A stretch of DNA of 47,744 nt from Comamonadaceae bacterium (GTDB lineage: Bacteria; Pseudomonadota; Gammaproteobacteria; Burkholderiales; Burkholderiaceae_C), in assembly GCA_037447395.1 (NCBI GenBank), contig JBBIGT010000001.1, positions 1-47,744 on the forward strand, written 5' to 3'. The position numbers and the translations under genes are program-made. Under the pieces are notes generated by a model that ran no database searches, had not been told where the DNA came from, and saw nothing but the letters and a program-made list of their open reading frames with translations. This document shows positions 8,722 to 47,721 of the stretch, one piece after another (position 1 is the first letter of the stretch; the number at the start of each line of letters is the position of its first letter).

Positions 8722-8785
8722 GTTTGAATGTTTTTGGCATCTAGCCCTTATTTTTAATGGGCATGTAGCTATATTATCAGTAGTA
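8722..8785 (+). repeat. Dispersed fixed-spacing AT-rich motif, copy 1 (intergenic, immediately upstream of hisC)
   Basis: Core 8742-8785: TAGCCC TTATTTTTAAT GGGC ATGT AGCTAT ATTATCA GTAGTA. Confidence 0.85.
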
Positions 8786-8789
8786 TTTT

Positions 8790-9899
8790 ATGACCACACA
8801 GTTCTTCAGTCCGGTGCTGGCGCAGCTGACGCCCTACGTGCCCGGCGAGCAGCCCAAGATCAGCAATCTGGTCAAACTCAACACCAATGAGAACCCGTAT
8901 CCGCCGTCGCCGCAGGTGGTGTCGGCGATCGTCGCCGCGGCGCAGCAGGGCTTGCAGCTGTACCCCGACCCACAAGCCAGCGCCTTGCGCCAGGCCGTCG
9001 CCGGGCATCTGGGTTTGACGGCGCAGCAGGTCTTTGTCGGCAATGGTTCCGACGAAGTGCTGGCGCACGCGTTCTTTGCCTTCTTCCAGCAAGACTGCCC
9101 ATTGCTGATGCCCGACATCAGCTACAGTTTTTATCAGGTGTATTGCCGTCTCTACGGCATCAACGTGCGCCAGGTGCCGCTCACCGCCGACCTGCGCTTG
9201 CGCGTGGCCGACTACGCTGGCGCAGCCGGCGAGCGGGTGGCCGGTGTCGTCATCGCCAACCCCAACGCGCCGACCGGCATTGGCTTGCCGCTGCAAGACG
9301 TCGAGGCGCTGCTGCAGCTGCATCCGCGCTGCGTCGTGCTGGTCGACGAGGCCTACGTCGACTTCGGCGGCGTCAGCGCCGTCGGCCTGATCGACCGCTA
9401 TCCCAACCTGCTGGTGGTGCACACCTTGTCCAAGTCGCGCTCGCTGGCGGGCTTGCGCATCGGCTACGCCTGCGGCCAGCGGCACCTGATCGACGCGCTG
9501 GAGCGCGTCAAAGACAGCTTCAATTCCTACCCGCTGGACCGCCTGGCCTTGGCCGGCGGCGTGGCGGCGTTTGCCGACGCGGCACACTTTGAGCAGACGC
9601 GCCGCGCTGTCATGTCCAGCCGCGAGGGCCTGACGCTGGCGCTGGAAGACCTGGGATTTGTGGTCCTGCCGTCGCAAACCAACTTTGTCTTTGCTCGCCA
9701 TCGGGCGCGCGACGCCGCCGGGCTGGCCGCCGGCCTGCGCGCGCAGGGTGTGCTGGTGCGCCATTTCAAGCAGCCGCGCATCGACGCCTACCTGCGCATC
9801 AGCATCGGCACGCCGGCGCAGTGCGAGCGCCTGGTGCACGCATTGACTGAGTTGCTGCAGACGCCGGCGACAACCAGCGAACACGCGACAGCTACTTAG
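8790..9899 (+). CDS. hisC: Histidinol-phosphate aminotransferase (PLP class I/II)
   Basis: [50 protein letters not shown]. Confidence 0.88.
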
Positions 9900-9951
9900 G
9901 ACGACGGGCTGGTCACGACACCGGTGCTGCATGGCGCCCCGGCGGGGCCGC

Positions 9952-10872
9952 TCAATAGCGTCGGGCCTGGCTGAGTTGGGCGTATAAATCGCTATAAATT
10001 TTGTATCTGCCGGCGCTTATGTAGCCTTGGCTATAGGCTGATTTGACTGAAGAAATTACGCCGCAGCCCGGTTCGTGCAGGTGGCTGCAGTTGTAGAAGC
10101 GGCACTGCGCCACGTGCGGCAAGATGTCGGGCATGTAGGCGGCCAACTGCGCCGGGTCGATGTGCTGCAGGCCAAATTCCTGAAAACCCGGCGAGTCGAG
10201 CAACGCCGTGGTTTTGTCGGCGTCGAGCCAATACCAGGTGGTGCTGGTCGTGGTGTGCTTGCCCGACTGCAGCGCTTGCGACAGCGCCCCGGTTTGCGCC
10301 AATGCGCCGGGGATCAGGCAGTTGATGAGCGTGCTTTTGCCGGCGCCCGACGGGCCCAGCACCAGTGTCGTTTTGCCGGCCAGGTGTTGCCGCAGCGTGA
10401 CGCGGTCGGCAGCGCTGGCCTGCGCCAGCGACAATCCCAGCACCGCGTAGCCCATGTCGCGGTAGGCGACCAGCTTGTCCCAGGCGCGGGCGAAGGGTGC
10501 GGCCAGATCGCTCTTGTTCAGGGCGATCAGCGGGGTGATGTGCTGCGCCTCGGCGGCGATCAGCGCGCGCGACAGTTGGTCGGCGGAGAACTCGGGTTCA
10601 GCGGCGATCAGGATCAGCACCTGATCCAGATTGGCGGCGAACGACTTGGTGCGGACCTCGTCCTGGCGGTACAGCAGATTGCGCCGCGGCTCGATACGCT
10701 CGATGGTGCCTTCGTCCTGGGAGGCCAGCCACTGCACGCGGTCGCCCACCACCGCCTGGCTTTTCTTGCCGCGCGAGTGGCAGATGCGCCGCGCCCCGTC
10801 GCCGCTCTCCAGCAAAAAATGGCGGCCGAAATTGCCGACGATCAAACCCGGCTGAAGCGCGGCAGCGGTCAT
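9952..10872 (-). CDS. rsgA: Ribosome small subunit-dependent GTPase A
   Basis: Circularly permuted GTPase: NKSD, GPSGAGKST, GKHTTT, DSPG, zinc site CRFYNCSHLHEPGC. Confidence 0.96.
   Translation of the reverse strand: MTAAALQPGLIVGNFGRHFLLESGDGARRICHSRGKKSQAVVGDRVQWLASQDEGTIERIEPRRNLLYRQDEVRTKSFAANLDQVLILIAAEPEFSADQLSRALIAAEAQHITPLIALNKSDLAAPFARAWDKLVAYRDMGYAVLGLSLAQASAADRVTLRQHLAGKTTLVLGPSGAGKSTLINCLIPGALAQTGALSQALQSGKHTTTSTTWYWLDADKTTALLDSPGFQEFGLQHIDPAQLAAYMPDILPHVAQCRFYNCSHLHEPGCGVISSVKSAYSQGYISAGRYKIYSDLYAQLSQARRY
9990..10053 (-). repeat. Dispersed motif, copy 2 (inside the rsgA 3' end, sense to the gene)
   Basis: Minus-strand core 10033-9990: TAGCCA AGGCTACATAA GCGC CGGC AGATAC AAAATTT ATAGCG, preceded by CAAAT-CAGCCTA. 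Confidence 0.8.
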
Positions 10873-12155
10873 CAGGCGGGCGCGTTCAGGCGCGCCAACC
10901 GCTCCGACGCGCCGGGGTGCGAGTAGTAGAACGCCACGTACAGCGGGTCGGGCGTCAGCGTCGACGCGTTGTCCTCGTACAGTTTGAGCAGGGCGTTGGT
11001 CAGGTCGCGTGCGCTGGTCAACTGGGCGGCAAAGGCGTCGGCCTGGAACTCGTGCTGACGCGACAGTTGCGCCCACAGCGGTGTGACGAAGAAGGTGAAC
11101 ACCGGCAGCACCAGCACAAACAGCAGCAACGCCAGCGCGTCGTTGGCGCCCAACGCGTTGGGCAGTACGCCCAGCCCGGTGTAGAACCCGCTTTGCTGCG
11201 CCAGCCAGCCCAACAGCGCAAAGCCCGCCAGGCTCAGGGCAAATAGCGCGACGATGCGTTTGAGCACGTGACGGTGTTTGAAGTGACCCAGCTCATGCGC
11301 CAGCACGGCGTCGACCTCGGCGGCGCTCAGCCGGCTGAGCAAAGTGTCGAAAAAGACCACCCGCTTGGCTGCGCCAAAGCCGGTGAAGTAGGCGTTGGCG
11401 TGGGTGCTGCGCTTGCTGCCGTCCATCACGAACAGCCCCTTGGCGGCAAAGCCGCAGCGCTGCATCAAGGCGGTCACACGGGCTTTCAGCGACGCGTCTT
11501 CAAGCGGTGTGAATTTGTTGAACAGCGGTGCAATCAGCGTCGGGTAGATCACCAACAGCAACAGGTTCAAGCCCATCCACAGTAGCCAGGCCCACAGCCA
11601 CCACAGGCCGCCGGCCGCACCCATCAGCCACAGCAGCAGCGCCGCAATCGGCAGGCCAATGGCCGCGCCCATCAGCGTCGATTTGGCCAGGTCGGCCAGC
11701 CACAACTTGACGGTCATCTTGTTGAAGCCAAAGCGCTGTTCAATGACAAAGGTCTGGTACAGCGCCAGCGGCAGGTCAAGCAGGCCACTGATCAGCGCGA
11801 AGGAGCCGAGCAACGCCACCTGCTGCCACAGGCCGGCGCCCAGCCAGTGCAGCAGCGCCTGGTTGAGCAGCGACAAGCCGCCCAGTAGCGTCCAGCACAC
11901 CAGCAGGGCGCTGGTCAGAATCAATTGCAGCGTCGCCAGGCGGCCTTTGGCCAGCGTGTAGTCGGCGGCCTTCTGGTGTGCGCCCAAGGCAATGGTCTGG
12001 GCAAAGGCTGTGGGCACGGCGCTGCGATGCTGCAGCACGTGGCGCATTTGCCGGGTGTTGAGCCAGAATTTGACGACCAGTGTCAGCAGCAGCGCCAGCG
12101 CAAAAGCCAGCGTCAGCAGCATCGACGGTTCCAACCAGGTGCGGGGTTCAAGCAT
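10872..12155 (-). CDS. M48 (Ste24/CAAX protease-like) zinc metalloprotease
   Basis: NAYFTGFG, HELGH, EFQADAFA, YYSHP; multiple TM segments (start 12155 or 12122). Confidence 0.92.
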   Translation of the reverse strand: MLEPRTWLEPSMLLTLAFALALLLTLVVKFWLNTRQMRHVLQHRSAVPTAFAQTIALGAHQKAADYTLAKGRLATLQLILTSALLVCWTLLGGLSLLNQALLHWLGAGLWQQVALLGSFALISGLLDLPLALYQTFVIEQRFGFNKMTVKLWLADLAKSTLMGAAIGLPIAALLLWLMGAAGGLWWLWAWLLWMGLNLLLLVIYPTLIAPLFNKFTPLEDASLKARVTALMQRCGFAAKGLFVMDGSKRSTHANAYFTGFGAAKRVVFFDTLLSRLSAAEVDAVLAHELGHFKHRHVLKRIVALFALSLAGFALLGWLAQQSGFYTGLGVLPNALGANDALALLLFVLVLPVFTFFVTPLWAQLSRQHEFQADAFAAQLTSARDLTNALLKLYEDNASTLTPDPLYVAFYYSHPGASERLARLNAPA

Positions 12156-12192
12156 GGCGGCGAAGTTTAGGTGATCGGCGACAATTTGCCGC

Positions 12193-12783
12193 ATGCCCAC
12201 CATCGACGCCCCCACACCGCTTGCCCCCACCCTGGGCAAATCTGATCAGAACCTGGTCTGGCTCGACTGCGAGATGACCGGGCTGAACCCCGAGGTCGAC
12301 CGCATCATCGAGATTGCCGTCGTCGTCACCGACGCGCAGCTGCAATACCGCATCGACGGCCCGGTGCTGGCGCTGCACCAGAGCGACACCTTGCTCGACG
12401 GCATGGACAAGTGGAACAAGAGTACGCACGGCAAGAGCGGCCTGATCGACCGGGTACGCGCGTCGACGTTGGGCGAAGACGCCGCACAAGAGCAACTGCT
12501 CGACTTTCTGCGCCTGTACGTACCCAAGGGTGCGGTGCCAATGTGCGGCAACACCATCGGCCAGGACCGGCGTTTTTTGGCCCGTTACATGCCGCGCCTG
12601 GAGGCCTATTTCCATTACCGCAACGTCGACGTCAGCACACTCAAGGAGCTGGCCAAACGCTGGGCGCCGACGGTGCAAAAGAGCTTCAAGAAAAAGCAGC
12701 GGCACACGGCGCTGGCCGACGTGCACGAGTCGATCGACGAGCTGGAACATTACCGCGCGCACTTCATCCGCGTCCCGGGTTAA
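12193..12783 (+). CDS. orn: Oligoribonuclease
   Basis: [49 protein letters not shown]. Confidence 0.97.
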
Positions 12784-12816
12784 AAAATAAAACTCAGTAG
12801 AAACCCGAATCCCGGG

Positions 12817-12822
12817 TATACT
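12817..12822 (+). promoter_or_regulatory. Putative -10 (TATACT) for the DEAD-box helicase, implying a ~220-nt 5' leader
   Basis: TATACTGCGCGGC, with an A-rich tract upstream. Confidence 0.45.
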
Positions 12823-13046
12823 GCGCGGCTTTGCTGCACACAGCGGCAAATTATTTGCGCATCTCCCAACATTCAACGGGTCCCGGGGCCAGCCGATCAC
12901 GGCTTGCTCCAAAAAATTGACCCCCCAGCGTCCGGTTGTCCGCTTCAGCGGCAAAACCCGGCCTGAGTCCGTTTGCTGGTTGATGTTTTTTAACCAGTAA
13001 CGGAGTCCTCCGCAGACTTTGCGGACCTCCCTTTGCGAGAAAAATC

Positions 13047-15044: not shown

Positions 15045-15056
15045 GTCGCCACAAAC

Positions 15057-15298: not shown

Positions 15299-15775
15299 AT
15301 GCAAAAGGTGTTGCACATCAACGCAGACAAATGCACCGGCTGTCTGCAGTGCGAAATGGCCTGTTCCTTTGAGAACTACGGCACCTTCGCCACCGCCAAA
15401 TCGCGCATCAAGGTTTTCAACTTTCACCATACCGGCAAGAAAGTGCCCTACACCTGCACCCAGTGCGACGAAGCCTGGTGCCTGCACGCCTGCCCCGTTG
15501 AAGCCATCACCGTCGACAAACTCACCGGCGCCAAAGTCGTCAACGAGGCCACCTGTGTCGGCTGTAAGGTCTGCACCATCGCCTGCCCGTTTGGCACCAT
15601 CAACTACATGCAGGAAACCGGCAAGGTGCAAAAGTGCGACCTGTGCGGGGGCGAACCCGCATGCGCCGAAGCCTGCCCGACCGGCGCGATCACCTTTATC
15701 GACGCCAACTGGACGGGGCTGGGCAAGATGCAGCAGTGGGCTGACAAGCTGGGCAACCAGACTGCCACCGCCTGA
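15299..15775 (+). CDS. 4Fe-4S multicluster electron-transfer subunit of aldehyde oxidoreductase (AorA-like)
   Basis: CTGCLQCEMAC, CTQC...CLHACP, CVGCKVCTIACP, KCDLC...CAEACP; AGGAG RBS. Confidence 0.93.
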   Translation: MQKVLHINADKCTGCLQCEMACSFENYGTFATAKSRIKVFNFHHTGKKVPYTCTQCDEAWCLHACPVEAITVDKLTGAKVVNEATCVGCKVCTIACPFGTINYMQETGKVQKCDLCGGEPACAEACPTGAITFIDANWTGLGKMQQWADKLGNQTATA

Positions 15776-15799
15776 CCTCAACACCTAAGGAGAATCACT

Positions 15800-17653
15800 A
15801 TGTCATGGGCTGGAAAAATCCTTCGCGTCAACCTCACTGCGGGCAGCGTCAAATCTGAACCTCTCAACATGGAGTGGGCCAAAGCCTACATCGGTTCACG
15901 TGGCCTGGGTACCAAGTATCTGGTCGAAGAAGTCGATGCCAAGGTTGACCCCTTGGGCGCGGCCAACAAGATCATCTGGGCCACCGGCCCGCTCACCGGC
16001 ACGATGGCCAGCACCGGCGGGCGCTACACCGTCATCACCAAAGGCCCGCTCACAGGGGCCATTGCCTGCTCCAACTCGGGCGGCTACTGGGGCGCCGAGC
16101 TGAAGATGGCTGGCTGGGACATGGTGATTTTTGAGGGCAAGAGCGCCAAACCGGTGTACCTCTACATCAACGACGACGTGGCCGAATTGCGCGACGCCGC
16201 GCACCTGTGGGGCCGAAGCGTCTGGCAGACCGAAGAGCTCATCAAGAAAGGCCTGCAAGACCCGCTGGTGCGTGTGTCATCGATCGGCAAGGCCGGTGAG
16301 AACAAGGTCTTGTTTGCCGCCGTGGTCAACGACCTGCACCGTGCCGCCGGCCGCTCGGGCGTGGGCGCAGTCATGGGCAGCAAAAACCTCAAGGCCATTG
16401 CCGTACGCGGCACCAAGGGCGTGGGCAATGTACGCGACCCCAAAGCCTTCATGGCTGCCACCAAAGCTGCCAAAAAGGTACTGGCAGACAACGGCGTCAC
16501 CGGGACCGGCTTGCCCGCCATGGGTACGCAGGTGCTGATGAGCGTGATCAACGAGGTCGGCGGCCTGCCCACCCGTAACCACCGGGACAACCAGTTTGAA
16601 GGTGCCATGGACATCGGCGCCGAAGCCATGGCCAAGCCGCGCGCCAGCGACGGCAAGAAACACCTGGTGACCAACCAGGCGTGTTTTGGCTGCACCATCG
16701 CTTGCGGGCGCATCAGCAAGATGGACGAGAGCCATTTCACCATCGAGAACAAACCGCAGTACCGCGGTGCCAACGGTGGCCTGGAATACGAGGCCGCCTG
16801 GGCGCTGGGCGCGGCCAACGGCGTCAACGACCTCGAATGCCTGCAGTACGCCAACCTGCTGTGCAACGAGGAAGGCATCGATCCGATCAGCTTTGGTGCC
16901 ACCGTGGGCGCGGTCATGGAGCTCTACGGCATGGGCGTGCTGACCAAAGAGCAGATCGGCATCGAGGCACCGTTTGGCTCGGCGCGCGCGCTGGCCTTTT
17001 TGGCCGAGGAAACGGTCAACGGCCGCGGTTTCGGCGTCGAGATTGGCCAAGGCTCCAAGCGGCTGTGCGCCAAGTACGGCCACCCGGAACTGAGCATGTC
17101 CAGCAAGGGTCAGGAATTTCCGGCCTACGACGGTCGTGCCATCCAGGGCATCGGTCTGGCGTACGCCACCAGCAACCGCGGCGGCTGCCACCTGCGCGGC
17201 TACACCATCGCCTCCGAAGTGCTGGGCATCCCGGTCAAGACCGATCCGGCGGAAAGCCAGGGCAAGCCCGAACTGGTCAAGGCGTTCCAGGACGCGACCG
17301 CCGCGTTTGACTCGTCTGGCCTGTGCATCTTCACCACCTTTGCCTGGGGCTTGCAGGATTTGGCGCCGCAAATGCAGGGTGCCTGCGACGCGCAATACAC
17401 CGTCGAAGAACTAGCCAAGATCGGCGAGCGCATCTGGAACATGGAGCGCGAGTTCAACAACCGCGCCGGCTTCACCAAGATGGATGACAGCCTGCCCGCG
17501 CGTCTGACCACCCCCGCAGGCGCTTGCAAGACTGGCCCCATGAAGGGCAAGTTCAACGAGCTTGCCACCATGCTGCCCAAGTACTATGAGGCGCGTGGCT
17601 GGGACGCCGAGGGCCGCCCCACAGCGGCGACCAAGCAGCGCTTGAGCCTGTAA
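15800..17653 (+). CDS. Tungsten-containing aldehyde:ferredoxin oxidoreductase catalytic subunit (AorB-like)
   Basis: KILRVNLT, GPLTG, SNSGG, GRSGVGAVMGSKNLKAI, CFGCTIAC, EYEAAW, RGGCH, DSSGLC: AOR-family motifs. Confidence 0.95.
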   Translation: MSWAGKILRVNLTAGSVKSEPLNMEWAKAYIGSRGLGTKYLVEEVDAKVDPLGAANKIIWATGPLTGTMASTGGRYTVITKGPLTGAIACSNSGGYWGAELKMAGWDMVIFEGKSAKPVYLYINDDVAELRDAAHLWGRSVWQTEELIKKGLQDPLVRVSSIGKAGENKVLFAAVVNDLHRAAGRSGVGAVMGSKNLKAIAVRGTKGVGNVRDPKAFMAATKAAKKVLADNGVTGTGLPAMGTQVLMSVINEVGGLPTRNHRDNQFEGAMDIGAEAMAKPRASDGKKHLVTNQACFGCTIACGRISKMDESHFTIENKPQYRGANGGLEYEAAWALGAANGVNDLECLQYANLLCNEEGIDPISFGATVGAVMELYGMGVLTKEQIGIEAPFGSARALAFLAEETVNGRGFGVEIGQGSKRLCAKYGHPELSMSSKGQEFPAYDGRAIQGIGLAYATSNRGGCHLRGYTIASEVLGIPVKTDPAESQGKPELVKAFQDATAAFDSSGLCIFTTFAWGLQDLAPQMQGACDAQYTVEELAKIGERIWNMEREFNNRAGFTKMDDSLPARLTTPAGACKTGPMKGKFNELATMLPKYYEARGWDAEGRPTAATKQRLSL

Positions 17654-17677
17654 CGCGCACTGACCCAAACGCCAGAT

Positions 17678-17729
17678 GAAATTGGGGTCAGATCACCGCC
17701 CAAGGGGCGTGTGCTCTGACCCCAATTTC
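17678..17729. repeat. Long inverted repeat (REP-like hairpin) between aorB and aorC
   Basis: GAAATTGGGGTCAGA...TCTGACCCCAATTTC, perfect 15-bp arms extended by CAC/GTG and CGCCC/GGGCG. Confidence 0.85.
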
Positions 17730-17764
17730 GTCGGGCAAGACTAAAAACTCTTTGGAGACTTCCC

Positions 17765-19060
17765 ATGACCCACCACGTCATTCTTGGCGCTGGCCCGGCC
17801 GGTGTCATCGCCGCCGAAACGATTCGCAAACTGGCGCCGCAGGACAGCATCACGCTGATCGGTGACGAACCCGAGCCAGCGTATTCACGCATGGCCATTC
17901 CCTACCTGCTGATGGGCAACATCGGTGAATCGGGCACCTACCTGCGCAAGACCGCCACCCACTTTGACAATTTAAAGATCAAAGTGCTTCGAGACCATGC
18001 AGATGCTGTGCAGACAGCTACAAAACAGATAGTTCTCCAAAGCGGCCAAACGCTGGCATTTGACACGCTGCTGATCGCCACCGGGTCGCACCCGGTCAGC
18101 CCGCCGATACCGGGCATCGCGTCTGCTGGCGTGCACACCTGCTGGACGCTGAAGGACGCGCGCGCCATCATGGCGCTGGCCAAGCCCGGTGCGCGCGTGC
18201 TGCAGCTCGGTGCCGGTTTTATCGGCTGCATCATCATGGAGGCACTGGCCGCGCGCGGCGTGCGCTTGAGTGTGGTGGAGATGGGCGACCGCATGGTGCC
18301 GCGCATGATGGGGCCGACGGCCGGTGGCATGATCCGCGACTGGGTGGCGGCCAAAGGGGTGGAAGTGTTCACCTCAACCCGTGTCGAATCGATTGCGCCG
18401 GGGCAACCGCTCACCGTGACGCTGTCCAATGGCACAACCATGCAGGCCGACCTGGTGATCAGCGCCGCCGGGGTGCGCCCCGCTATTGGCTTCCTGAAAG
18501 ACTCGGGCATCACCTGCTTGCTCGGTGTGCTCACCGACGGCCACCTGCAAACCAACGTGCCGGGCATTTTTGCCGCTGGTGACTGCGCCGAAGCCTTGGA
18601 CAAGGTCTCAGGCAAAACCATGGTCAGCGCCATCCAGCCCAACGCGGCCGAGCAGGCGCGCATCGCCGCGGCCAACATGGTGGCGTTTGCCCGTGGGCGC
18701 GCGGCGCACGCGGAGCTCAAGGGTGTGACACAAATCAACGTGCTCGACACGCTGGGCCTGATTTCCAGCAGCTTTGGCGACTGGCAGGGCGTGCCCGGTG
18801 GTGAGCATGTGGAACTGACCGACAAGGCTGAAGGGCGGCATTTGAGCCTGCAGTTCAAGGACGACGTGCTGGTGGGGTGCAACAGCGTCGGCTGGACCGA
18901 CCATGTGGGCGTGATGCGCGGCCTGGTCGAAGGTCAGGTCAAGCTGGGTCACTGGAAAGACAAGCTCAAACAGGACCCGACGCTGCTGATGGAGGCTTAC
19001 CTCGCCAGCGCGCAGGGGCAAGGCGACTGGTCGGGGGCGGCGGATGCGCGGCGCAGGTAA
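17765..19060 (+). CDS. FAD/NAD(P)-dependent oxidoreductase (AorC-like)
   Basis: ILGAGPAG, ATGS, LGAGFIG, FAAGDC; third gene of the AOR operon. Confidence 0.92.
   Translation: MTHHVILGAGPAGVIAAETIRKLAPQDSITLIGDEPEPAYSRMAIPYLLMGNIGESGTYLRKTATHFDNLKIKVLRDHADAVQTATKQIVLQSGQTLAFDTLLIATGSHPVSPPIPGIASAGVHTCWTLKDARAIMALAKPGARVLQLGAGFIGCIIMEALAARGVRLSVVEMGDRMVPRMMGPTAGGMIRDWVAAKGVEVFTSTRVESIAPGQPLTVTLSNGTTMQADLVISAAGVRPAIGFLKDSGITCLLGVLTDGHLQTNVPGIFAAGDCAEALDKVSGKTMVSAIQPNAAEQARIAAANMVAFARGRAAHAELKGVTQINVLDTLGLISSSFGDWQGVPGGEHVELTDKAEGRHLSLQFKDDVLVGCNSVGWTDHVGVMRGLVEGQVKLGHWKDKLKQDPTLLMEAYLASAQGQGDWSGAADARRR
17971..18034 (+). repeat. Dispersed motif, copy 3 (inside aorC, sense)
   Basis: Core 17991-18034: GAGACC ATGCAGATGCT GTGC AGAC AGCTAC AAAACAG ATAGTT; local AT-rich codon patch. 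Confidence 0.65.
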
Positions 19061-19065
19061 GCTTT

Positions 19066-19125
19066 GCGACAAATCAAGCGACAACCCAAGCGATAAACCA
19101 AGCGATAAACCAAGCGATAAACCAG
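19066..19125 (+). repeat. 12-bp tandem repeat x5 (GCGAYAAMYCAR), intergenic
   Basis: GCGACAAATCAA GCGACAACCCAA GCGATAAACCAA GCGATAAACCAA GCGATAAACCAG. Confidence 0.9.
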
Positions 19126-19138
19126 ACGACGCCAGGCG

Positions 19139-19393
19139 ATGCAGATCACCCTCAAACTGTTTGCCACGCTGACCGACTATCTTCCGGCTGAAGCCGAGTA
19201 CACCAATTTTGTCGAGCTGACTTTGCCCGACGGTGCAACCGTCGCCGACGTCATCACGCAGCAGCGCCTGCCAGAGAAATGGGTGCACCTGGTGCTGGTC
19301 AACGGCCACTACATCGCCGCGCAGGTGCGCGCGACAACGGCGCTGGCGGACGGTGACACGCTGGCCATCTGGCCGCCGATCGCCGGTGGCTAG
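19139..19393 (+). CDS. MoaD/ThiS-family sulfur carrier
   Basis: MQITLKLFATL...LVLVNG...DGDTLAIWPPIAGG with C-terminal GG. Confidence 0.9.
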   Translation: MQITLKLFATLTDYLPAEAEYTNFVELTLPDGATVADVITQQRLPEKWVHLVLVNGHYIAAQVRATTALADGDTLAIWPPIAGG

Positions 19394-19457
19394 TTATATA
19401 AGAAATTGGCCTATAGCCCATATAAATAAAGCGCAAACAGCTATTGAATATGGAGTA
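19394..19457 (+). repeat. Dispersed motif, copy 4 (intergenic, right arm overlaps the ATG at 19450)
   Basis: TATAAGAAAT TGGCCTA TAGCCC ATATAAATAAA GCGC AAAC AGCTAT TGAATAT GGAGTA. Confidence 0.88.
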
Positions 19458-19743
19458 CCCAGAGAGCTTTGAACGCGACATGGCGTGCCAGGAGGTCGAC
19501 TGGCTGCGCTGGTTGTCGGGGGCCATCGGCGACAACTTTTTCAAGTTGCACCCCGGGCGCGCCGGTGTGCGTCTGGGCGACGGGGCGCTGGGCTTGCGCT
19601 GGCAGGTGGCCGAGCCGCGCGTCATCGGTCTGGTGCGCCTGCCGCGGTTGCTGGTGCAGTTTCGCTTTGGCGGCGTCAGTGACGCGGATCGGCAGGCGTT
19701 TATGGCGCGCTTTGACCTCTTTATGCAGCGCGGCGGCGGGTAG
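19450..19743 (+). CDS. Hypothetical protein ending in QRGGG
   Basis: ORF with host-like codon usage: MEYPESFERDMAC...LVRLPRLLVQFRF...FDLFMQRGGG. Confidence 0.75.
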   Translation: MEYPESFERDMACQEVDWLRWLSGAIGDNFFKLHPGRAGVRLGDGALGLRWQVAEPRVIGLVRLPRLLVQFRFGGVSDADRQAFMARFDLFMQRGGG

Positions 19744-20215: not shown

Positions 20216-20602
20216 TCAAGCGCCACTTGCGGCAATGAATAAGGTCGCCGTTTTGATGCCTGCCAGCGTCAGCAGCAGCGAGCCAAACAAATGCAACGCG
20301 GCGGTGCCAAAACCCAGCAGGTAGCGCTGCTGGCCGAGCATGCCGACCACCTCCGCAGAAAAACTTGAAAACGTCGTCAGCGCGCCCAGAAAACCGGTAA
20401 TGATGGCCAGCCGCCACGCCGGGTCCAGGTGCGGCAGCGCCTGGAATACGGCCACGGCGATGCCGATCAGGTAGCCGCCGATCCAGTTCGCCGCCAACGT
20501 GCCCAGGGGCAGCGCGACGCCCGGGTTCAGCCAGAGCCCCAAGCTCCAACGGCTCAGGGCGCCCAAGCAGGCGCCGACGCAAATGGCGGCAACAGACATC
20601 AT
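20216..20602 (-). CDS. crcB: Fluoride efflux channel Fluc/CrcB
   Basis: [41 protein letters not shown]. Confidence 0.93.
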
Positions 20603-20639
20603 GATGTTGTGATCATATCGGGCAATGCGTTGTGGGCAC

Positions 20640-20662
20640 AAAAAAACCCGCCGTAGCGGGTT
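20640..20662 (-). terminator. Intrinsic terminator after the comEA-like gene (lies inside the apparent fused ORF)
   Basis: Minus strand AACCCGC-TACG-GCGGGTTTTTTT, near-identical to the ompA terminator. Confidence 0.8.
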
Positions 20663-20684
20663 GCTTGACCGGTGAGGGGGCCTG

Positions 20685-21196
20685 TCACTTGTGGTCGCGC
20701 TGGCCTTGGCGGCTGCCTTGGCAGCGGCCTTTTCTTCCTTGGCTTTTTTGGCGGCTTCGGCTTTGGCGGCTTTTTCGTCAGCCTTGGCTTTCTTGGCCGC
20801 TTCTTTGTCAGCAGCGGCTTGTGCCTTGGTATCGACCTTCATGTCTTTGGTTGCTGCGGCTGCCGCAGCCGGCGCGGCTACTTTTGCATCGGTCTTCTTG
20901 GTGTCTGCCTTTTTAGCCGCAGGTGCCACGCCCTTGAATGTGTCGCCGTTGACGGTCAGGCCTTCGGCTGAGAATTTGGCGGCATTGCCTTCGCCCACGC
21001 CCTTGACGCGATTGACAAAGTCAGTCCAGTCCTTGAAGCTGCCTTTCTTGCGTTCGTCCAGAATCTTGGTTGAAATGCCTGGGCCAATGCCCTTGATGCC
21101 ATCGAGCTCGGCGGCCGTCGCTTTGTTGACATCGACCGCGGCAAAGCAAGCGGCGGCATACAACATGGCCAGGGTGGCCAGAATTTTTTTCAACAT
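20685..21196 (-). CDS. ComEA-family helix-hairpin-helix DNA-binding protein with signal peptide and Lys/Ala-rich tail; expected stop (TGA 20687-20685) is out of frame
   Basis: [12 protein letters not shown] signal, [19 protein letters not shown]...VKGVGE HhH motifs; AGGAG RBS. Confidence 0.85.
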
Positions 21197-27028: not shown

Positions 27029-29020
27029 TCAGGTTGTGCCTTGCCACCAGCGCAACACCTGATCAACCGATTGCTCAACCGTTAGTTCAGAGTTGTCCAG
27101 CAGCTTGGCGTCTACGGCAGCTTGCAGGGGCGCGGCGCTGCGCGACGTGTCGCGCGCATCACGCGCCTGCAGGTCTGCGCGAAGGGACGCGAGTGTAGTC
27201 GAAATTCCCTTTGAAATCAACTGCTTGTAGCGGCGATTTGCCCGCTGCTCGGCGCTGGCGGTCAAAAACACCTTGAGCCGCGCGTGCGCAAAGATCACTG
27301 TGCCCATGTCGCGCCCGTCGGCGACCAGCCCGGGCAGGCGGCGAAAGCGGTGTTGCAGGCCGACCAGCGCGGCGCGCACCGCCGGCAGCGCCGAGATACG
27401 CGAGGCGTTCATGCCGCATTCTTCGCTGCGGATGGCGTCGGTAATGTCCTCGCCTGCCAACCGGACCCGGTCGCCGTCAAACGCGATCGGCAAGCCTGCG
27501 GCCAGACGGGCGATGGCCGCTGCACCGCTGGCGTCCAGCGGCAATTGCGCGCGCGCCGCGGCCAGGGCGGTGATGCGGTAGAGCGCGCCGGAATCGAGCA
27601 GGTGGTAGCCCAAGCGCGCGGCCACTGCCGCCGCCAGCGTGCCCTTGCCCGAGGCGGTCGGGCCGTCAATGCACAGCACCGGAATCGCCTCTGCCGGTGT
27701 CTGTACCACGGAAAACAGCGTCTCGAAATAGTCGGGGAAGGTTTTGGCGACGCACTTGGGGTCGTTGATGCGGATGGTGCGCTGGGCCGGGTTGAACGCT
27801 GCCAGCGCAAAACACATGGCCATGCGGTGGTCGTCGTAGGTGTTGATCGTCGCGGCGCGCCAATCCACCGTGTGCGCGGGCGGCGTGATACGGATGAAGT
27901 CGGCGCCTTCGTCGACGCTGGCGCCGAGCTTGCGCAGCTCGCAGGCCATCGCCGCCAGTCGATCGGTTTCCTTGACGCGCCAGCTGGCGATGTTGCGCAA
28001 GGTGCTCGGGCCGTCGGCGTACAGCGCCATCAGCGCCAGTGTCATGGCGGCGTCGGGGATGTGGTTGCAGTCCAGGTCGATGGCCTTGAGTGGCCAGTCG
28101 CCCTGGCAGATTTCCAGCCAATTGGCACCGCTGCTGATGCGCGCGCCCATGGCGCGGGCGGCGTCGATGAAGCGGATGTCGCCTTGAATGGAATCGGCAC
28201 CAACACCCAAAAGCTTGATGCTATTTTTGCCATTAGCCCATGCGGCGATTGCGCCAGCAGCTATAAAATAACTAGCACTTGAGGCGTCGGCCTCGATGTG
28301 GATTTCGCCTGGCGATTGCAGCGCACTGCCCTTGGGAATGGTGAATCGCTGCCAGCCCTGGCGCTGCACGCCGACGCCAAAGCGCTGCAACAGTTTGAGC
28401 GTGATGTCGATGTAGGGGCGCGAGATCAGCTCGCCGATGACGTCGATCTGGATGTCTTGTCGGGCCACCAGCGGCAGCGCCATCAACAAGGCGGTGAGGA
28501 ACTGGCTTGACACGTCGCCGCGCACCTGGATCGGCGCGCTGATCTGCAACTGCGCCTGACCGATGTGCAGCGGCGGGTAGCCGATTTGGCCGAGGTAGTC
28601 GACCTGGCAACCGAGTTGCCTGAGCGCGTCGACCAGGTCGCCGATTGGGCGCTCGTGCATGCGCGGCACACCGCGCAGTTCGAAGTCACCGCCGAGCACC
28701 GCCAACGCCGCGGTCAACGGGCGAATCGCCGTGCCGGCGTTGCCCATGAATAGCTGCGCCTGGCGCACCGGTAGTTGACCGCCCAAGCCGTCGATGGTGA
28801 CGGTGTGGCCGGCCTTGGCGACGCCACAGCCCAGCGCCGCCAGCGCGTCGAGCATGACGCGGGTGTCGTCCGAGTCGAGCACGTCGTGTACGGTGGTGCG
28901 ACCCTGACACAGCGCCGCCAACAGCAGCACGCGGTTGGAGATGCTTTTGGAGCCGGGCAGGGTGACGCAGCCGTTGGCCGCCTGCAGTGATGGCAGGTCG
29001 AGAAATTCGGTGGCAAACAT
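27029..29020 (-). CDS. aroA: Bifunctional EPSP synthase / cytidylate kinase
   Basis: [41 protein letters not shown], then [25 protein letters not shown] (Cmk). Confidence 0.96.
27192..27227 (-). promoter_or_regulatory. Putative rpsA promoter inside cmk (TTGATT-N17-TACACT) overlapped by an IHF consensus site
   Basis: -35 at 27220-27215, -10 at 27197-27192; plus-strand AATCAACTGCTTG (27215-27227) matches WATCAANNNNTTR. Confidence 0.6.
28214..28277 (+). repeat. Dispersed motif, copy 5 (inside aroA, antisense to the gene)
   Basis: Core 28234-28277: TAGCCC ATGCGGCGATT GCGC CAGC AGCTAT AAAATAA CTAGCA. Confidence 0.85.
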
Positions 29021-38668: not shown

Positions 38669-39430
38669 ATGCAACTGCAGGACATTCTTTACAGCCAAGG
38701 CTTTGGCACGCGGCGCGTCTGCGCTGGTTTGATCCAGCAGGGCTGGGTTGAGGTTTATGAACAAAACGGGCAGAAATCCCCCGTAAAACATACGCTAGCA
38801 GCTACTGAATTTGAAGCGCCTGGGTTGCGCTTCAGGGTTCAGGGCGTCGATTGGTGCTATAGCGAGCGCGCCTACATCGTGCTGCACAAGCCGGCGCAGA
38901 CCGAGTGCTCGCAAAAACCCTCGACCTACCCCAGCGTCTACGCCTTGTTGCCGGCGCCGCTGCGTCAGCGGCCGCAAAAAGGCGCGCTGCAAGGTGTGCA
39001 GGCGGTTGGCCGGCTCGACCAGGACACCACCGGTTTGTTGCTGCTGACCGACGACGGTCAGTTCATCCACCGCATGAGCTCGCCGCGCCACCACGTGCCC
39101 AAGGTTTATGAGGTCGGCGTCAAGCATCCGCTTGACGAGCGTCAGGTGGCGCGCTTGCTGGCCGGCGTGGTGCTTGACGACGACCCCAAACCGGTGCGCG
39201 CGGCTGCCTGCGCGGCGGTGTCACCAACGCACCTGCGCCTGACGCTGCTCGAGGGCAAATACCACCAGGTCAAGCGCATGGTCGCCGCCGTCGGCAACCG
39301 GGTCGAAACCTTGCATCGCAGTCAGATCGGCGGCTGGTGCTTGCCCGACGACTTGTTGCCGGGGCAGTGGCGCGCGCTGACCGTCACTGAGCTGGCGCTG
39401 ATCGATCCGGCCTACCGTTACCACCTGTAA
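38669..39430 (+). CDS. RsuA-family rRNA pseudouridine synthase
   Basis: S4-like N-terminus, VGRLDQDTTGLLLLTDDG, EGKYHQVKRM. Confidence 0.92.
   Translation: MQLQDILYSQGFGTRRVCAGLIQQGWVEVYEQNGQKSPVKHTLAATEFEAPGLRFRVQGVDWCYSERAYIVLHKPAQTECSQKPSTYPSVYALLPAPLRQRPQKGALQGVQAVGRLDQDTTGLLLLTDDGQFIHRMSSPRHHVPKVYEVGVKHPLDERQVARLLAGVVLDDDPKPVRAAACAAVSPTHLRLTLLEGKYHQVKRMVAAVGNRVETLHRSQIGGWCLPDDLLPGQWRALTVTELALIDPAYRYHL
38755..38818 (+). repeat. Dispersed motif, copy 7 (inside the rsuA-like gene, sense)
   Basis: Core 38775-38818: AATCCC CCGTAAAACAT ACGC TAGC AGCTAC TGAATTT GAAGCG, preceded by TGAACAAAAC-GGGCAGA. Confidence 0.75.
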
Positions 39431-42865: not shown

Positions 42866-42881
42866 TCCACGCAACACCCCC

Positions 42882-42911: not shown

Positions 42912-42990
42912 ATGTGGGAAACTACGTGCGCACTTCTGCTGAAAAACGCGGTCATGGCAAAGTTTGATCGCCAACAAGCGCGGGACATTT

Positions 42991-44591: not shown

Positions 44592-44621
44592 CGACAGGCC
44601 AGGAAAGAGCGCTGAAACCCT

Positions 44622-46277
44622 ATGAAATCCATCTGGATTGTTGACGACGACCCGTCGATCCGCTTTGTTCTGGAGAAAGCGCTGGCGCGCGAGGGCCTGC
44701 CCACGCGCAGTTTTGCCAGCGCGCGCGAGGTGCTGACGGCGCTGGACGCCGCCGACGACCGCGGCCCGCAGGTGATGGTCAGCGACATCCGCATGCCCGG
44801 CGCCTCGGGGCTGGAGTTGCTGGAAAAAGTCAAAGTGCGCTTGCCCGGCCTGCCGGTGATCGTCATGACCGCGTACTCTGATCTGGACAGCGCGGTGTCG
44901 GCGTTTCAGGGGGGCGCCTTCGAGTACCTGCCCAAACCGTTTGACCTGACCAAGGCCGTCGAGCTGATCCGCCGCGCGGTGGACGAAAGCCGCCGCGAAG
45001 AGGTGGTTGAAGAGCAGGCGGCGCCGGCACCCGAGATGCTCGGCCAGGCGCCGGCCATGCAAGACGTCTTCCGCGCCATCGGCCGCCTGAGTCAGAGCAA
45101 CGTCACGGTGCTGATCACCGGCGAGTCGGGCTCCGGCAAAGAGTTGGTGGCGCGCGCCTTGCACAAGCACTCACCGCGCGCGGGCGGGCCGTTCATCGCC
45201 ATCAACACCGCGGCGATCCCCAAGGACTTGCTGGAGAGCGAGCTGTTTGGCCACGAGCGCGGTGCCTTCACCGGCGCCCAGACCATGCGTCGGGGCCGCT
45301 TCGAGCAGGCCGACGGTGGCACGCTGTTTCTCGACGAAATTGGCGACATGCCGTTCGACCTGCAAACCCGGCTGCTGCGCGTGCTCTCTGACGGCCACTT
45401 TTACCGCGTCGGTGGTCACAGTGCGGTCAAGACCAACGTGCGCGTGATCGCCGCGACGCACCAGCATCTGGAGCAGCGCGTCAAGGACGGCAGCTTCCGT
45501 GAAGACTTGTTTCACCGCCTCAACGTCATCCGCCTGCGCCTGCCGGCGCTGCGCGAGCGCCGCGAGGACATTGCCGCGCTGACGCGCCACTTTCTGCAAC
45601 AAAGCGCGGCGCAGCTGGGCGTCGAGGCCAAACGCATCTCTGAGGTGGCGCTGGCGAGGCGCCGCGAGGACATTGCCGCGCTGACGCGCCACTTTCTGCA
45701 ACAAAGCGCGGCGCAGCTGGGCGTCGAGGCCAAACGCATCTCTGAGGTGGCGCTGGCGTGGCTGGGTCGCTTTGACTTCCCCGGCAACGTGCGCCAGCTG
45801 GAGAACATGTGCCACTGGCTGACGGTGATGGCGCCGGCACAGCTCATCGAGGCCAAAGACTTGCCGCCGGAAGTTGGCGTTGCGGTGGACCAGGGTTATA
45901 CACAAAATATGCCCCTAGCCCATATAAATAAATGGCAGGAAGATACAGAACTAATAGCGCAAGACGGCGCGGTGGGGGCCCCGCCGGATGACGTGGCGTC
46001 GCTCGGGGCAGGGCTGGCCGGGGCGGGTGCCGCAGCGGGTCACAGCGGGGCGCCGACACCGGCGTTGACCTGGGAGCTGGGCTTGCAGGCCGACGCCAAC
46101 GCATTGCTGGCGGCCGACCGCGGCGACGTGTGGGACGTGCTGACGCGCCGCTTTGAGGCGCGGCTGATCGAGGCGGCGTTGGCCAACACCCGCGGGCGGC
46201 GCGTTGAGGCGGCGCAAAAGCTTGGCATCGGCCGCAACACCATCACGCGCAAGATTCAGGAACTGGGCCTGGAGTGA
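44622..46277 (+). CDS. glnG: Nitrogen regulation response regulator NtrC (carries a 34-aa internal duplication)
   Basis: Receiver domain, GESGSGKE, ESELFGHERGAFTGA, FPGNVRQLEN, HTH LGIGRNTITRKI. Confidence 0.96.
   Translation: MKSIWIVDDDPSIRFVLEKALAREGLPTRSFASAREVLTALDAADDRGPQVMVSDIRMPGASGLELLEKVKVRLPGLPVIVMTAYSDLDSAVSAFQGGAFEYLPKPFDLTKAVELIRRAVDESRREEVVEEQAAPAPEMLGQAPAMQDVFRAIGRLSQSNVTVLITGESGSGKELVARALHKHSPRAGGPFIAINTAAIPKDLLESELFGHERGAFTGAQTMRRGRFEQADGGTLFLDEIGDMPFDLQTRLLRVLSDGHFYRVGGHSAVKTNVRVIAATHQHLEQRVKDGSFREDLFHRLNVIRLRLPALRERREDIAALTRHFLQQSAAQLGVEAKRISEVALARRREDIAALTRHFLQQSAAQLGVEAKRISEVALAWLGRFDFPGNVRQLENMCHWLTVMAPAQLIEAKDLPPEVGVAVDQGYTQNMPLAHINKWQEDTELIAQDGAVGAPPDDVASLGAGLAGAGAAAGHSGAPTPALTWELGLQADANALLAADRGDVWDVLTRRFEARLIEAALANTRGRRVEAAQKLGIGRNTITRKIQELGLE
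45557..45758 (+). repeat. Exact tandem duplication, 100 bp x2, period 102 bp, in frame
   Basis: 45557-45656 is identical to 45659-45758; protein RREDIAALTRHFLQQSAAQLGVEAKRISEVALA appears twice. Confidence 0.95.
45896..45959 (+). repeat. Dispersed motif, copy 8 (inside the ntrC AAA+-HTH linker, sense)
   Basis: TACACAAAAT ATGCCCC TAGCCC ATATAAATAAA TGGC AGGA AGATAC AGAACTA ATAGCG. Confidence 0.85.
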
Positions 46278-46290
46278 AAGGGTTTTCGTC

Positions 46291-46833
46291 ATGACTGCCG
46301 AGGCACAAACCATCGTTCTTGCTGGTGGTTGCTTCTGGTGCACGGAGGCGGTCTACGTCAACGTCAAAGGCGTGCTCGACGTCGAATCGGGCTACAGCAA
46401 CGGCCATGTGCAGCAGCCCACCTACGAGCAGGTGTGCAGCGGGCGCAGCGGCCACGCGGAGGTCGTTAAATTGGTGTTCGATTCGGCACAAATCAGCCTG
46501 CGCGAGATTCTGGAAATCTTCTTTGTCATCCACGACCCGACGACGCGCAACGCGCAGGGCAACGACCACGGCACGCAGTACCGCAGCGGCATCTACACCC
46601 GCACCGCCGCGCAGGCTGAGGTCGCGCACGCGGTGCTGGCCGAGTTGAGCGCCAGTGGCATTTACAGCCGCCCGGTGGTGACCGAGGTGCAGCCGCTGGC
46701 CAATTACTGGCCCGCCGAGGATTACCATCAGGACTTCTTTGCCCGCAACCCGCAGCAAGGCTATTGCCTGGCCGTGGCCGCACCCAAGGTGGCCAGGTTT
46801 CGCCAGACATTTGCCCGGCTGGTGCGCGACTGA
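46291..46833 (+). CDS. msrA: Peptide methionine sulfoxide reductase A
   Basis: GGCFWCTE, PTYEQVCSG.SGHAEVV, HDPT, QGND.GTQYRSGIY, AEDYHQ. Confidence 0.96.
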   Translation: MTAEAQTIVLAGGCFWCTEAVYVNVKGVLDVESGYSNGHVQQPTYEQVCSGRSGHAEVVKLVFDSAQISLREILEIFFVIHDPTTRNAQGNDHGTQYRSGIYTRTAAQAEVAHAVLAELSASGIYSRPVVTEVQPLANYWPAEDYHQDFFARNPQQGYCLAVAAPKVARFRQTFARLVRD

Positions 46834-46851
46834 ACCGACCGGGTGGCGCGG

Positions 46852-47721
46852 TCAGTTCAGCGCCATACCGGCGGCCAGCGCCGCGATGTTGTGGCGCATC
46901 ATCTGCAAATACGTTGGGGCCGGTTCGTTGGCACCGGACAGCGCGTCGACGTAAAGCGTTGGCCCCAGGCGCACACCGGTGTCGCGGGCAATTTGGGTGA
47001 GCAACTTGGCGTCGCGCAGGTTCTCGACGAACACCGCCTTGATGTGCTCGCGCTGGATCTGTCGGATCAGTTGCGCGACCGCTTTGGCGCTGGGCTGGGC
47101 GTCGGGGTTGACGCCTTGCGGTGCCAAAAATTTGATCTGGTAGCGCGCGGCCAGATAGCCCAACGCATCGTGTGAGGTGATGGCGCGGCGCTGCGGCGGG
47201 CGCAGCGCGGCAAACTGGCGGCGCGCCCACAGATCCAGGTCACGCAGCTCGGCAATGTACTTTTCGCTATTTTGTTGATAGCTACTGGCACCCTGTGGAT
47301 CAAGTTGGCTGAGCGCTTGGCTGATGTTCTGCACGTAAATCTCGACGTTGCTCGGGTCCTGCCAGGCGTGCGGGTCCCGCGCGCGCGCCGCAATTCCCTG
47401 GCTAGCCACCAGCGTGCGGCCTGTGTAGTTGGCCGAGCGCGCCAGTTTCTCCGCCCACGGCTCGAACGCCAGGCCGTTGATGACCAGCAAACGCGCGTTC
47501 AGCAGCGCGCGGGCGTGCGCTGGCGTCGGGGCAAATTCGTGGGCGTCGGCGTTGGCGCCGACCAGGGTCGTCACCCGCACCCGTGCGCCGCCGACGCCGC
47601 GCACCAGGTCGGCCAGGATGCTGAAGCTGGCGACCACCGGCAGCGCTTCGCCGGCCGGCGCGCGCGCCAGCACGCCGGTTGCTGCCGCGCCTGCCAGCCA
47701 TTTCAAAAATTGACGTTTCAT
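46852..47721 (-). CDS. Zn/Mn ABC transporter substrate-binding protein (TroA/ZnuA family)
   Basis: VVASFSILAD, DAHEF, DPHAW, TSHDALGY, VFVE, YVDALS. Confidence 0.92.
   Translation of the reverse strand: MKRQFLKWLAGAAATGVLARAPAGEALPVVASFSILADLVRGVGGARVRVTTLVGANADAHEFAPTPAHARALLNARLLVINGLAFEPWAEKLARSANYTGRTLVASQGIAARARDPHAWQDPSNVEIYVQNISQALSQLDPQGASSYQQNSEKYIAELRDLDLWARRQFAALRPPQRRAITSHDALGYLAARYQIKFLAPQGVNPDAQPSAKAVAQLIRQIQREHIKAVFVENLRDAKLLTQIARDTGVRLGPTLYVDALSGANEPAPTYLQMMRHNIAALAAGMALN
47265..47291 (-). repeat. Dispersed motif, copy 9 (partial; inside the metal-binding protein gene, sense)
   Basis: Minus strand GTGC CAGT AGCTAT CAACAAA ATAGCG; the TAGCCC half is not recognisable. Confidence 0.65.

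What the first reader, a model, noticed from the sequence alone, without database searches (positions are those of the whole stretch)
8722..47291. Unannotated ~60-bp fixed-spacing DNA motif, about one per 5 kb, in both intergenic DNA and coding sequences
Seen: nine AT-rich patches in GC-rich DNA align with no gaps to (A/T tract)-N7-TAGCCC-N11-GCGC-N4-AGCTAY-N7-ATAGC. The 44-bp cores start at 8742, 9990(-), 17991, 19414, 28234, 32197, 38775 and 45916, with a partial copy at 47265(-). It contains a GCTAT-N7-ATAGC palindrome, a weaker GCCC-N11-GSGC palindrome and alternating AT/GC blocks. Spacer sequence varies but spacer length does not. No transposase, target duplication or terminal inverted repeats are visible. 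Inference: strict spacing with a degenerate sequence fits a site bound by a protein complex across several helical turns (nucleoid organisation, DNA wrapping, topoisomerase or segregation site, or an uptake-type signal) better than a simple MITE. I cannot name a described family for it.
Basis: partly seen in the sequence, partly recalled or inferred. Interest (0 to 1): 0.92.

Follow-up and report, generated by a model that had tools for sequence, protein, structure and literature searches.

The report
Genome-wide 65-base overprinted DNA signal
Many Comamonadaceae bacteria carry a 65-base DNA motif every 5 to 7 kb, written over their own core genes without changing gene length and absent from the resident conjugative-plasmid DNA sampled, and it is likely a previously unnamed 'self-DNA' signal that would spread because cells preferentially take up DNA carrying it.

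Summary
Real, and larger than the window. It is not an insertion: 41 of 57 alignable coding copies have no net indel against a motif-free relative, orthologous sites persist in motif-positive species and decay in negative ones, and copies show no subfamilies, RNA covariation or replichore polarity. The core GCTAY-N7-RTAGC is invariant; the left arm has lineage dialects. It was found only in Comamonadaceae among those searched, lost repeatedly (34 of 81 Rhodoferax), is densest in native genes, absent from 150 kb of conjugative plasmids and one Rhodoferax phage, and is the best-kept part of DUF1010 integron cassettes (71 of 74), which are amplified in arrays and show no protein-level selection. 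These are the genomic hallmarks of DNA uptake sequences, so a transformation-driven self-DNA signal is my best reading (0.5); a chromosome-organising protein site is the main rival (0.3). No reader protein was identified, and competence genes occur in negatives too. Fragments were listed unexplained in 2017 (PMC5217627). Interest 0.8.

The parts
8722..8789 (+). Full copy filling the 71-bp gap between a CobD/AmpE-like gene (ends 8718) and an aminotransferase gene (starts 8790)
   Evidence: 70.7 bits; genes
9986..10053 (-). Full copy inside the 3' end of the RsgA GTPase gene (9952-10872, -); no net indel against G007
   Evidence: 58.2 bits
17971..18038 (+). Weaker full copy inside an FAD/NAD(P) oxidoreductase gene (17765-19060, +)
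   Evidence: 37.7 bits
19394..19461 (+). Best copy in the genome, from the stop of a ThiS/MoaD-family gene into the start of the next ORF
   Evidence: 79.4 bits
28214..28281 (+). Full copy antisense inside aroA-cmk (27029-29020, -); same site in 6 of 6 positive genomes, decayed in 5 of 5 negative
   Evidence: 50.7 bits
32177..32244 (+). Full copy between the gyrA stop and the serC start; same site in 6 of 6 positive genomes, not found in 5 negative
   Evidence: 77.4 bits
38755..38822 (+). Full copy inside an RsuA-family pseudouridine synthase gene (38669-39430, +); same site in 6 of 6 positive, decayed in 3 of 3 negative with a peptide imprint left in G008
   Evidence: 48.4 bits
45896..45963 (+). 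Full copy in the variable linker of ntrC (44622-46277, +); found at this place only in this genome among 11 compared
   Evidence: 61.2 bits
47266..47282 (.). Half-site only (GCTAT-N7-ATAGC) inside a ZnuA gene

Best explanation
The motif is a fixed-length double-stranded DNA signal written in place over core genes and gene gaps, and it is likely a self-DNA uptake signal: competent cells would take up or keep DNA fragments that carry it more often, so every base change towards the consensus would be handed on by recombination (molecular drive). Shown: in-place origin, an invariant 17-bp dyad with a one-sided arm of about 45 bp of alternating AT and GC blocks, dialects, repeated loss followed by decay, absence from the conjugative-plasmid DNA sampled, amplification on integron cassettes. 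Inferred: a two-fold symmetric reader on the dyad with bending or wrapping of the arm, acting while the DNA is still double-stranded (pilus, secretin or periplasm).
For: (1) 52 bits of information where 13.7 would locate the sites; coding copies alone hold 47 bits and pull GC3 from 0.80 to 0.35. (2) 186 of 339 copies lie inside genes, evenly along them, on both strands, in two preferred frames (79 of 97 sense, 61 of 89 antisense). (3) Overwriting, not insertion: 41 of 57 sites without net indel, none above 13 aa, 45% amino-acid identity against 73% in control stretches. (4) Density rises fourfold from foreign-looking to native genes, 0.63 to 2.55 per 10 kb. (5) No polarity: 91 same and 84 opposite neighbours; uniform round a complete chromosome. 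(6) Conserved core with lineage dialects. Items 2, 4 and 6 match what PMC2817400 (passages) and PMC3630211 (passages) report for USS and DUS, item 5 what PMC1939737 says (passages); item 3 fits their preference for poorly conserved positions. (7) 0 copies in 150 kb of conjugative plasmids from two motif-rich species against 8 in 50 kb of a replicon with ribosomal genes; 0 in the 36-kb Rhodoferax phage P26218. (8) DUF1010 cassettes: 71 of 74 full copies carry the motif, pN/pS 1.0 outside it and no codon periodicity, up to 18 matches in one genome, 8 of 9 carrier genomes motif-positive; chromosomal integrons can recruit cassettes from transforming DNA (PMC12614218, abstract). (9) The hardware exists: PilP in 80 of 80, ComEC in 78 of 80; this genome has ComEA, ComM and a FimT-like pilin with a GRAR tail (GRxR motif in PMC8897410, passages).
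Against: Competence genes do not separate positive from negative genomes: ComEC, PilP and ComP_DUS-family pilins are in both, DprA, ComM and ComEA in 4 of 4 negatives, and aligned PilE pilins show no positive-specific feature. This genome's own dprA has an in-frame TAA and comEC is not in the 86.6%-complete assembly, yet its density equals that of its sisters; the stop could not be checked against reads. A 65-bp signal with a palindromic core is unlike the 10-32 bp DUS and USS and suggests a dimeric cytoplasmic protein. Close pairs are depleted here (0 gaps under 400 bp against 16 expected) but not in the G177 sample (5 under 500 bp against 5.6). Selected phage contigs do carry it, 7.4 dyad hits per 100 kb beyond the seed against 11.9 in this genome and 1.7 in its control. 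I found no paper on self-preferring uptake in this family.
Confidence: 0.5

Rival explanations
1. A chromosome-organising site: a dimer or tetramer (LysR-like geometry, T-N11-A core with a weaker second site 22-23 bp away, or another DNA-bending protein) binds and bends about 65 bp every few kb, and selection keeps each site.
For: Odd-spaced palindromic core, A or T tract in either orientation at -11 to -9, peaks of AT/GC periodicity near 8 and 11 bp; avoidance of divergent promoter gaps, 8 against 42 expected by length, and excess in convergent gaps, 25 against 16; sites kept at the same places for long times; presence inside phage genes. The T-N11-A rule for LysR sites is recalled, not from a call.
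Against: Fourfold excess information; dispensable in 34 of 81 Rhodoferax genomes with interleaved phylogeny; 250-350 kb resident plasmids lack it in the 150 kb sampled; cassette arrays pack copies 260-320 bp apart, closer than any pair on this chromosome; a Crp/Fnr and a LysR candidate are present in negatives.
Confidence: 0.3
2. Drive through another transfer route: the motif marks DNA for packaging or export (transducing particles, vesicles, conjugation-like chromosome transfer) or licenses incoming DNA for recombination, with the same overwriting result.
For: Explains the same drive signatures, the palindromic core and the lack of correlation with competence genes. A dynamin-like GTPase between mutM and mutY is present in 40 of 47 positive and 7 of 34 negative Rhodoferax genomes.
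Against: A second gene picked the same way (DUF853 ATPase) correlates as well, 43 of 47 against 13 of 34, so the link may be general gene loss plus kinship; 20 of 33 low or negative genomes across the family keep the dynamin; no joints or molecule ends seen at the sites in contigs (weak test).
Confidence: 0.12
3. A transcription-factor regulon or an RNA element.
For: Many intergenic copies touch stop or start codons.
Against: 55% coding, both strands, avoids divergent gaps; no covariation in either dyad over 338 copies; consensus fold energy -0.06 kcal/mol with no compensatory pair; no Rfam match.
Confidence: 0.05
4. A decayed MITE, REP or RPE-type inserted element.
For: Some intergenic copies fill the whole gap, and a few coding sites show 3-13 extra residues; on DUF1010 cassettes the motif does travel by copying.
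Against: No 22-residue insertion at any of 57 sites; median nearest-neighbour identity 66%; no linkage between left and right halves, Mantel r 0.02, p 0.21; no mention of these genera in the main text of a REP survey (PMC3733652, term search).
Confidence: 0.03

Closest known systems
DNA uptake sequences: USS of Pasteurellaceae and DUS of Neisseriaceae
   Same: About 1% of the genome, most copies in genes with reading-frame bias, at poorly conserved positions, rare in acquired DNA, no orientation bias, dialects around a fixed core, GC core with AT-rich flanks.
   Different: 65-70 bp instead of 10-32 bp; palindromic core; one per 5-7 kb rather than about one per kb; no inverted terminator pairs; lost repeatedly inside one genus; no receptor or uptake bias shown.
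Unexplained spaced motifs of Tong, Schliekelman and Mrazek 2017 (PMC5217627)
   Same: GCTTAT(N)5AAGCG of Acidovorax ebreus maps to positions 4-19, ATAGCT(N)22CAAAAG of Polaromonas naphthalenivorans to positions -3 to 30 on the other strand, and supplement pairs such as GCTAT_TATAG d=6 to the core dyad; the paper also notes the excess between convergent genes.
   Different: In the sections and rows I read they are separate pentamer pairs, treated as mainly intergenic, not joined into one element or one family, with no coding overprint, loss pattern or mechanism.
DUF1010 (Pfam PF06231) integron cassettes, such as the one in plasmid R751
   Same: The Pfam profile begins at the translation of the motif; the cassette holds a 56-bit copy.
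   Different: Filed as a protein of unknown function; here the frame is mostly open (63 of 68) but evolves without amino-acid constraint, which points to a cis-acting DNA cassette.
REP/BIME, Correia and Rickettsia palindromic elements (features recalled)
   Same: Hundreds of dispersed copies with dyad symmetry, some in genes.
   Different: Those are inserted, near-identical or hairpin-covarying; this one is overprinted, degenerate and has no covariation.
Chromosome-organising sites: KOPS, Chi, matS, parS, Noc/SlmA sites, LysR-type nucleoid proteins (features recalled)
   Same: Protein-read DNA sites, often in genes.
   Different: Those are 8-16 bp and polar or regional; this is 65 bp, unpolarised and genome-wide.

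Membership tests
DNA uptake sequence (DUS/USS) | Causes preferential uptake or transformation of DNA that carries it | not testable with these tools
   Needs an uptake assay; no paper found
DNA uptake sequence (DUS/USS) | Hundreds to thousands of copies, many in genes with frame bias, arisen in place | tested here: met
DNA uptake sequence (DUS/USS) | Rare in horizontally acquired DNA, no strand polarity | tested here: met
DNA uptake sequence (DUS/USS) | Competence machinery in the host | tested here: inconclusive
   Present across the family, in negatives too; dprA has a stop and comEC is not assembled in this genome
DNA uptake sequence (DUS/USS) | A specific pilin receptor that tracks the motif | tested here: inconclusive
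   PF16732 in 77 of 80 genomes, no feature of positives in 34 aligned pilins; other pilins not compared
DNA uptake sequence (DUS/USS) | Short non-palindromic core (9-12 bp) | tested here: not met
   17-bp palindromic core in a 65-70 bp element; so it is not a member of the DUS or USS sequence families, whatever it works like
MITE / REP / RPE | Full-length insertion relative to empty orthologues | tested here: not met
   41 of 57 no net indel, maximum 13 aa
MITE / REP / RPE | Near-identical copies or subfamilies; covarying hairpin | tested here: not met
Polar or regional chromosome sites (KOPS, Chi, matS, parS) | Replichore polarity or regional clustering | tested here: not met
   (20 samples of a complete chromosome); one draft genome shows uneven density
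Transcription-factor operator (LysR-type or other) | Located at promoters of a coherent regulon | tested here: not met
   8 of 144 flanked intergenic copies in divergent gaps against 42 expected
Nucleoid-protein or topoisomerase site | Bound in vivo by an architectural protein | not testable with these tools
   Needs pull-down or ChIP; two candidate regulators rejected by presence in negatives

The most novel reading that the evidence does not exclude
A third, independently evolved system of self-DNA recognition in bacteria, in a dominant freshwater and wastewater family, read by a two-fold symmetric protein over six helical turns, switched off repeatedly in evolution, and parasitised by a protein-less integron cassette (DUF1010) that has carried the signal onto about 1,800 plasmid records of clinical enterobacteria.
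Probability: 0.4. Interest if true: 0.93.

Novelty: new variant of a known kind. Interest (0 to 1): 0.8.

Why it matters
Sequence-specific DNA uptake is described for two families only (bioRxiv 10.1101/2025.10.24.684340, passages). A third case, five times longer and with sister species that have and lack it, would make the open question of why such signals arise (drive or selection for sex) testable by direct comparison. If instead it is a chromosome-organising site, a 65-bp site that rewrites 20 residues of proteins such as EPSP synthase would be without precedent known to me. Either way it reshapes about 1% of these genomes, explains odd peptide stretches in their proteins, reinterprets a Pfam family as a DNA element and gives a provenance mark for DNA of Comamonadaceae origin, integron cassettes included.

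Tried and rejected
Replichore polarity: the all-plus rows look like a listing artefact (each second block starts just after 3.0 Mb); direct sampling shows none. A weak link to contig GC skew in this genome (179 against 125) was not seen with KOPS-like words (111 against 90) or in G177. Differential gene content: only about 47% of the negative genome G007 was obtained, so the 94 plus 168 candidates cover part of the genome and were judged by eye; four were tested. Crp/Fnr (2 of 3 negatives have it) and LysR (3 of 3) rejected; dynamin-like GTPase and DUF853 ATPase correlate equally and neither is established. Single-sequence fold of the dynamin was unusable (pLDDT 39). ESM Atlas did not answer. 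ComEC, PilP, PilE, DprA, ComM, ComEA: no discrimination. Sequencing runs: no RNA holder listed; contigs confirm the assembly over four copies but show no informative joints. BLAST of one copy against named phages gave only chance hits. My first ORF-status count for DUF1010 had a frame error and is replaced. Literature searches without a description of the element; one search found PMC5217627. Supplements of PMC3733652 and of the bioRxiv paper were not seen, and of PMC5217627 only the first rows per term; subscription papers are not searched.
Full report
Observation. The nine places exist and align without gaps. An iterated 68-bp profile seeded on seven window copies converged on 339 sites of 22 bits or more in the 2.29-Mb, 239-contig genome; reversed DNA gave 2 hits at 20 bits and 0 at 25. 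Eight window copies are full, the ninth is a half-site. Synonymous and codon-order shuffles reduce 191 coding hits to 3-11 and 0. The closest named homologues of one of its proteins are from Rhodoferax, and I call the genus so on that basis.

Anatomy (position 0 is the T of TAGCCC). T-rich shoulder at -24 to -17; an A or T tract at -11 to -8 that occurs as AAA or TTT; GGCC at -6 to -3; AGCCC at 1-5; AT-rich spacer; GCGC at 17-20; AGCTAY at 25-30; WWW at 33-35; RTAGC at 38-42. Total information is 52 bits against 13.7 needed to find the sites. The 30 strongest column pairs are all within 4 bases of each other, and neither dyad shows complementarity beyond expectation over 338 copies; the alignment fold has no compensatory pair; Rfam has no match. 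It is therefore read as double-stranded DNA.

Placement. 186 of 339 copies lie wholly inside genes of my own gene calls, evenly along them and on both strands, with two preferred frames; by eye the hosts include leuS, topA, uvrA, mutS, recN and smc (names recalled from sequence). Of 144 flanked intergenic copies 111 are between co-oriented, 25 between convergent and 8 between divergent genes, against 86, 16 and 42 expected by length. Neighbours are not co-oriented (91 same, 84 opposite). Twenty 20-kb samples of the complete chromosome G177 hold 73 hits, evenly and on both strands of both replichores. Density follows nativeness, 0.63 to 2.55 per 10 kb across GC3 quintiles. Close pairs are missing here (0 gaps under 400 bp against 16 expected) but not in the smaller G177 sample.

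Origin. The aroA and RsuA coding sites and the serC-gyrA site are at the same place in 6 of 6 positive genomes; the coding sites align without a gap or with a 3-residue gap to negative genomes, where they have decayed. Against 47% of the negative genome G007, 64 coding sites had an orthologue, 57 were alignable, 41 had no net indel and none more than 13 residues; identity at sites was 45% against 73% elsewhere. Left and right halves of 148 non-redundant intergenic copies are unlinked. The motif arises and is kept by point changes in place.

Range. The full pattern matched 126 of 301 genomes of the family, 0 to 889 times, and 0 of 12 genomes of other families in the order. Several apparent negatives are dialects: the strict dyad occurs 398, 392, 320, 303 and 207 times in five of them against 1-6 in controls, with the tract, GGC and GYC kept at the same distances and the GCGC block changed. 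Inside the genus the state is bimodal: 47 of 81 genomes at 1.5 times control or more, 34 below. A seven-protein tree of 11 genomes puts negatives as sisters of positives (support 100, 99 and 70; midpoint root), so the signal was lost more than once.

Mobile DNA. 150 kb of conjugative plasmids from R. ferrireducens and P. naphthalenivorans hold none, a Comamonas replicon with ribosomal genes 8 in 50 kb, and a 32-kb R. antarcticus record 10. Phage P26218 has none, its host's state being unknown. 56 viral loci were selected by the pattern; copies lie inside terminase, virion and primase genes, and 35 of those records have 7.4 further dyad hits per 100 kb; 10 of the 35 are classed as proviruses. 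A BLAST of one copy hit 1,808 plasmid records, 37 of the 40 listed being plasmids of other families and 35 of them over a DUF1010 gene. The R751 cassette holds a 56-bit copy and the Pfam profile starts at its translation. In 52 metagenome loci 71 of 74 full DUF1010 copies carry the motif; they are 260-320 bp attC cassettes, in tandem up to 8 in 3.3 kb, several beside integrases 51-61% identical to IntI1. The high-information positions are 91% conserved against 80% elsewhere in the cassette; the frame is open in 63 of 68 (found by a protein query, so biased) but pN/pS is 1.0 downstream of the motif. DUF1010 was found in 9 of 80 genomes, 8 of them positive, with 18 matches in one (only 65 candidates per genome were scored).

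ComEC (78 of 80), PilP (80 of 80) and ComP_DUS-family pilins (77 of 80) are general; DprA, ComM and ComEA are in 4 of 4 negatives. This genome has pilMNOPQ, a FimT-like pilin with GRAR, ComEA and ComM, but a dprA with an in-frame stop and no assembled comEC or major pilin. From a partial synteny-loss list, a dynamin-like gene between mutM and mutY is in 40 of 47 positive and 7 of 34 negative genomes, but a DUF853 ATPase chosen the same way gives 43 of 47 and 13 of 34; kin are not independent and both were picked for absence in one negative, so neither is evidence of a partner.

Mechanism. Excess information, overwriting of core proteins in tolerated frames, nativeness, lack of polarity, dialects round a fixed core, absence from the conjugative-plasmid DNA sampled and selfish-looking amplification on cassettes are what biased uptake plus recombination predicts, and most are listed for DUS and USS in PMC2817400, PMC3630211, PMC1939737 and PMC3458573 (passages read). 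The palindromic core, the length and the untelling competence genes keep an architectural protein site at 0.3 and another transfer route at 0.12. The step from pattern to uptake is inferred, not shown.

Prior knowledge. PMC5217627 (abstract, section 13, passages, first supplement rows) lists two fragments as potential novel motifs and gives R. ferrireducens the most spaced pairs of 569 genomes, without joining them. Other searches found no description. Earlier AI notes of this scan describe what appears to be the same family and one mentions an integron cassette; they were read after my tests and are not independent support.

Verdict. A real, unnamed, family-wide DNA signal; not a member of the DUS or USS sequence families, but most likely working like them. 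New variant of a known kind, interest 0.8.

Noticed in passing
window 20216-21196 (-): A ComEA helix-hairpin-helix protein runs in one frame into a CrcB fluoride-channel domain; relatives have a short ComEA (95-116 residues matched, stop soon after), so this looks like a lost stop or a fusion.
   Followed up: partly
G000:C17:13784-14926: dprA has an in-frame TAA inside a conserved stretch, with neighbouring codons also changed; real loss or assembly error not resolved. The gene also carries a motif copy.
   Followed up: partly
G000:C4:20159-22111: Dynamin-like GTPase between mutM and mutY, cleanly deleted in G007 and missing in 34 of 81 genomes of the genus; function unknown.
   Followed up: yes
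L300-L309: comEC itself carries the motif at shared positions in 9 of 9 positive genomes shown and in none of 3 low or negative ones.
   Followed up: partly
G191:C1: 20 of 23 sampled dyad hits fall between 1.13 and 2.55 Mb of a 3.26-Mb contig; possible regional bias in this genome, unlike G177.
   Followed up: no
G000:C3:1829-9159: Low-GC (0.55) minor-pilin cluster fimT-pilV-pilW-pilX-pilY1-pilY2-pilE between nrdR and ribD.
   Followed up: partly
L480:227-2880: Eight diverged DUF1010 cassettes in 3.3 kb; each also keeps a GC-rich hairpin downstream of the motif (DNA fold z -3.8).
   Followed up: partly
L499 (NZ_CP083452.1): A record filed as a plasmid of Comamonas odontotermitis carries the spc and alpha ribosomal operons and recG; chromid or piece of chromosome.
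   Followed up: no
L311:14849-14933: In G188 one copy has a second full dyad 67 bp upstream.
   Followed up: no
window 15299-19743: Aldehyde:ferredoxin oxidoreductase-like cluster (Fe-S protein, oxidoreductase, FAD reductase, MoaD) holding two motif copies; naming of the first two genes is recalled from sequence.
   Followed up: no
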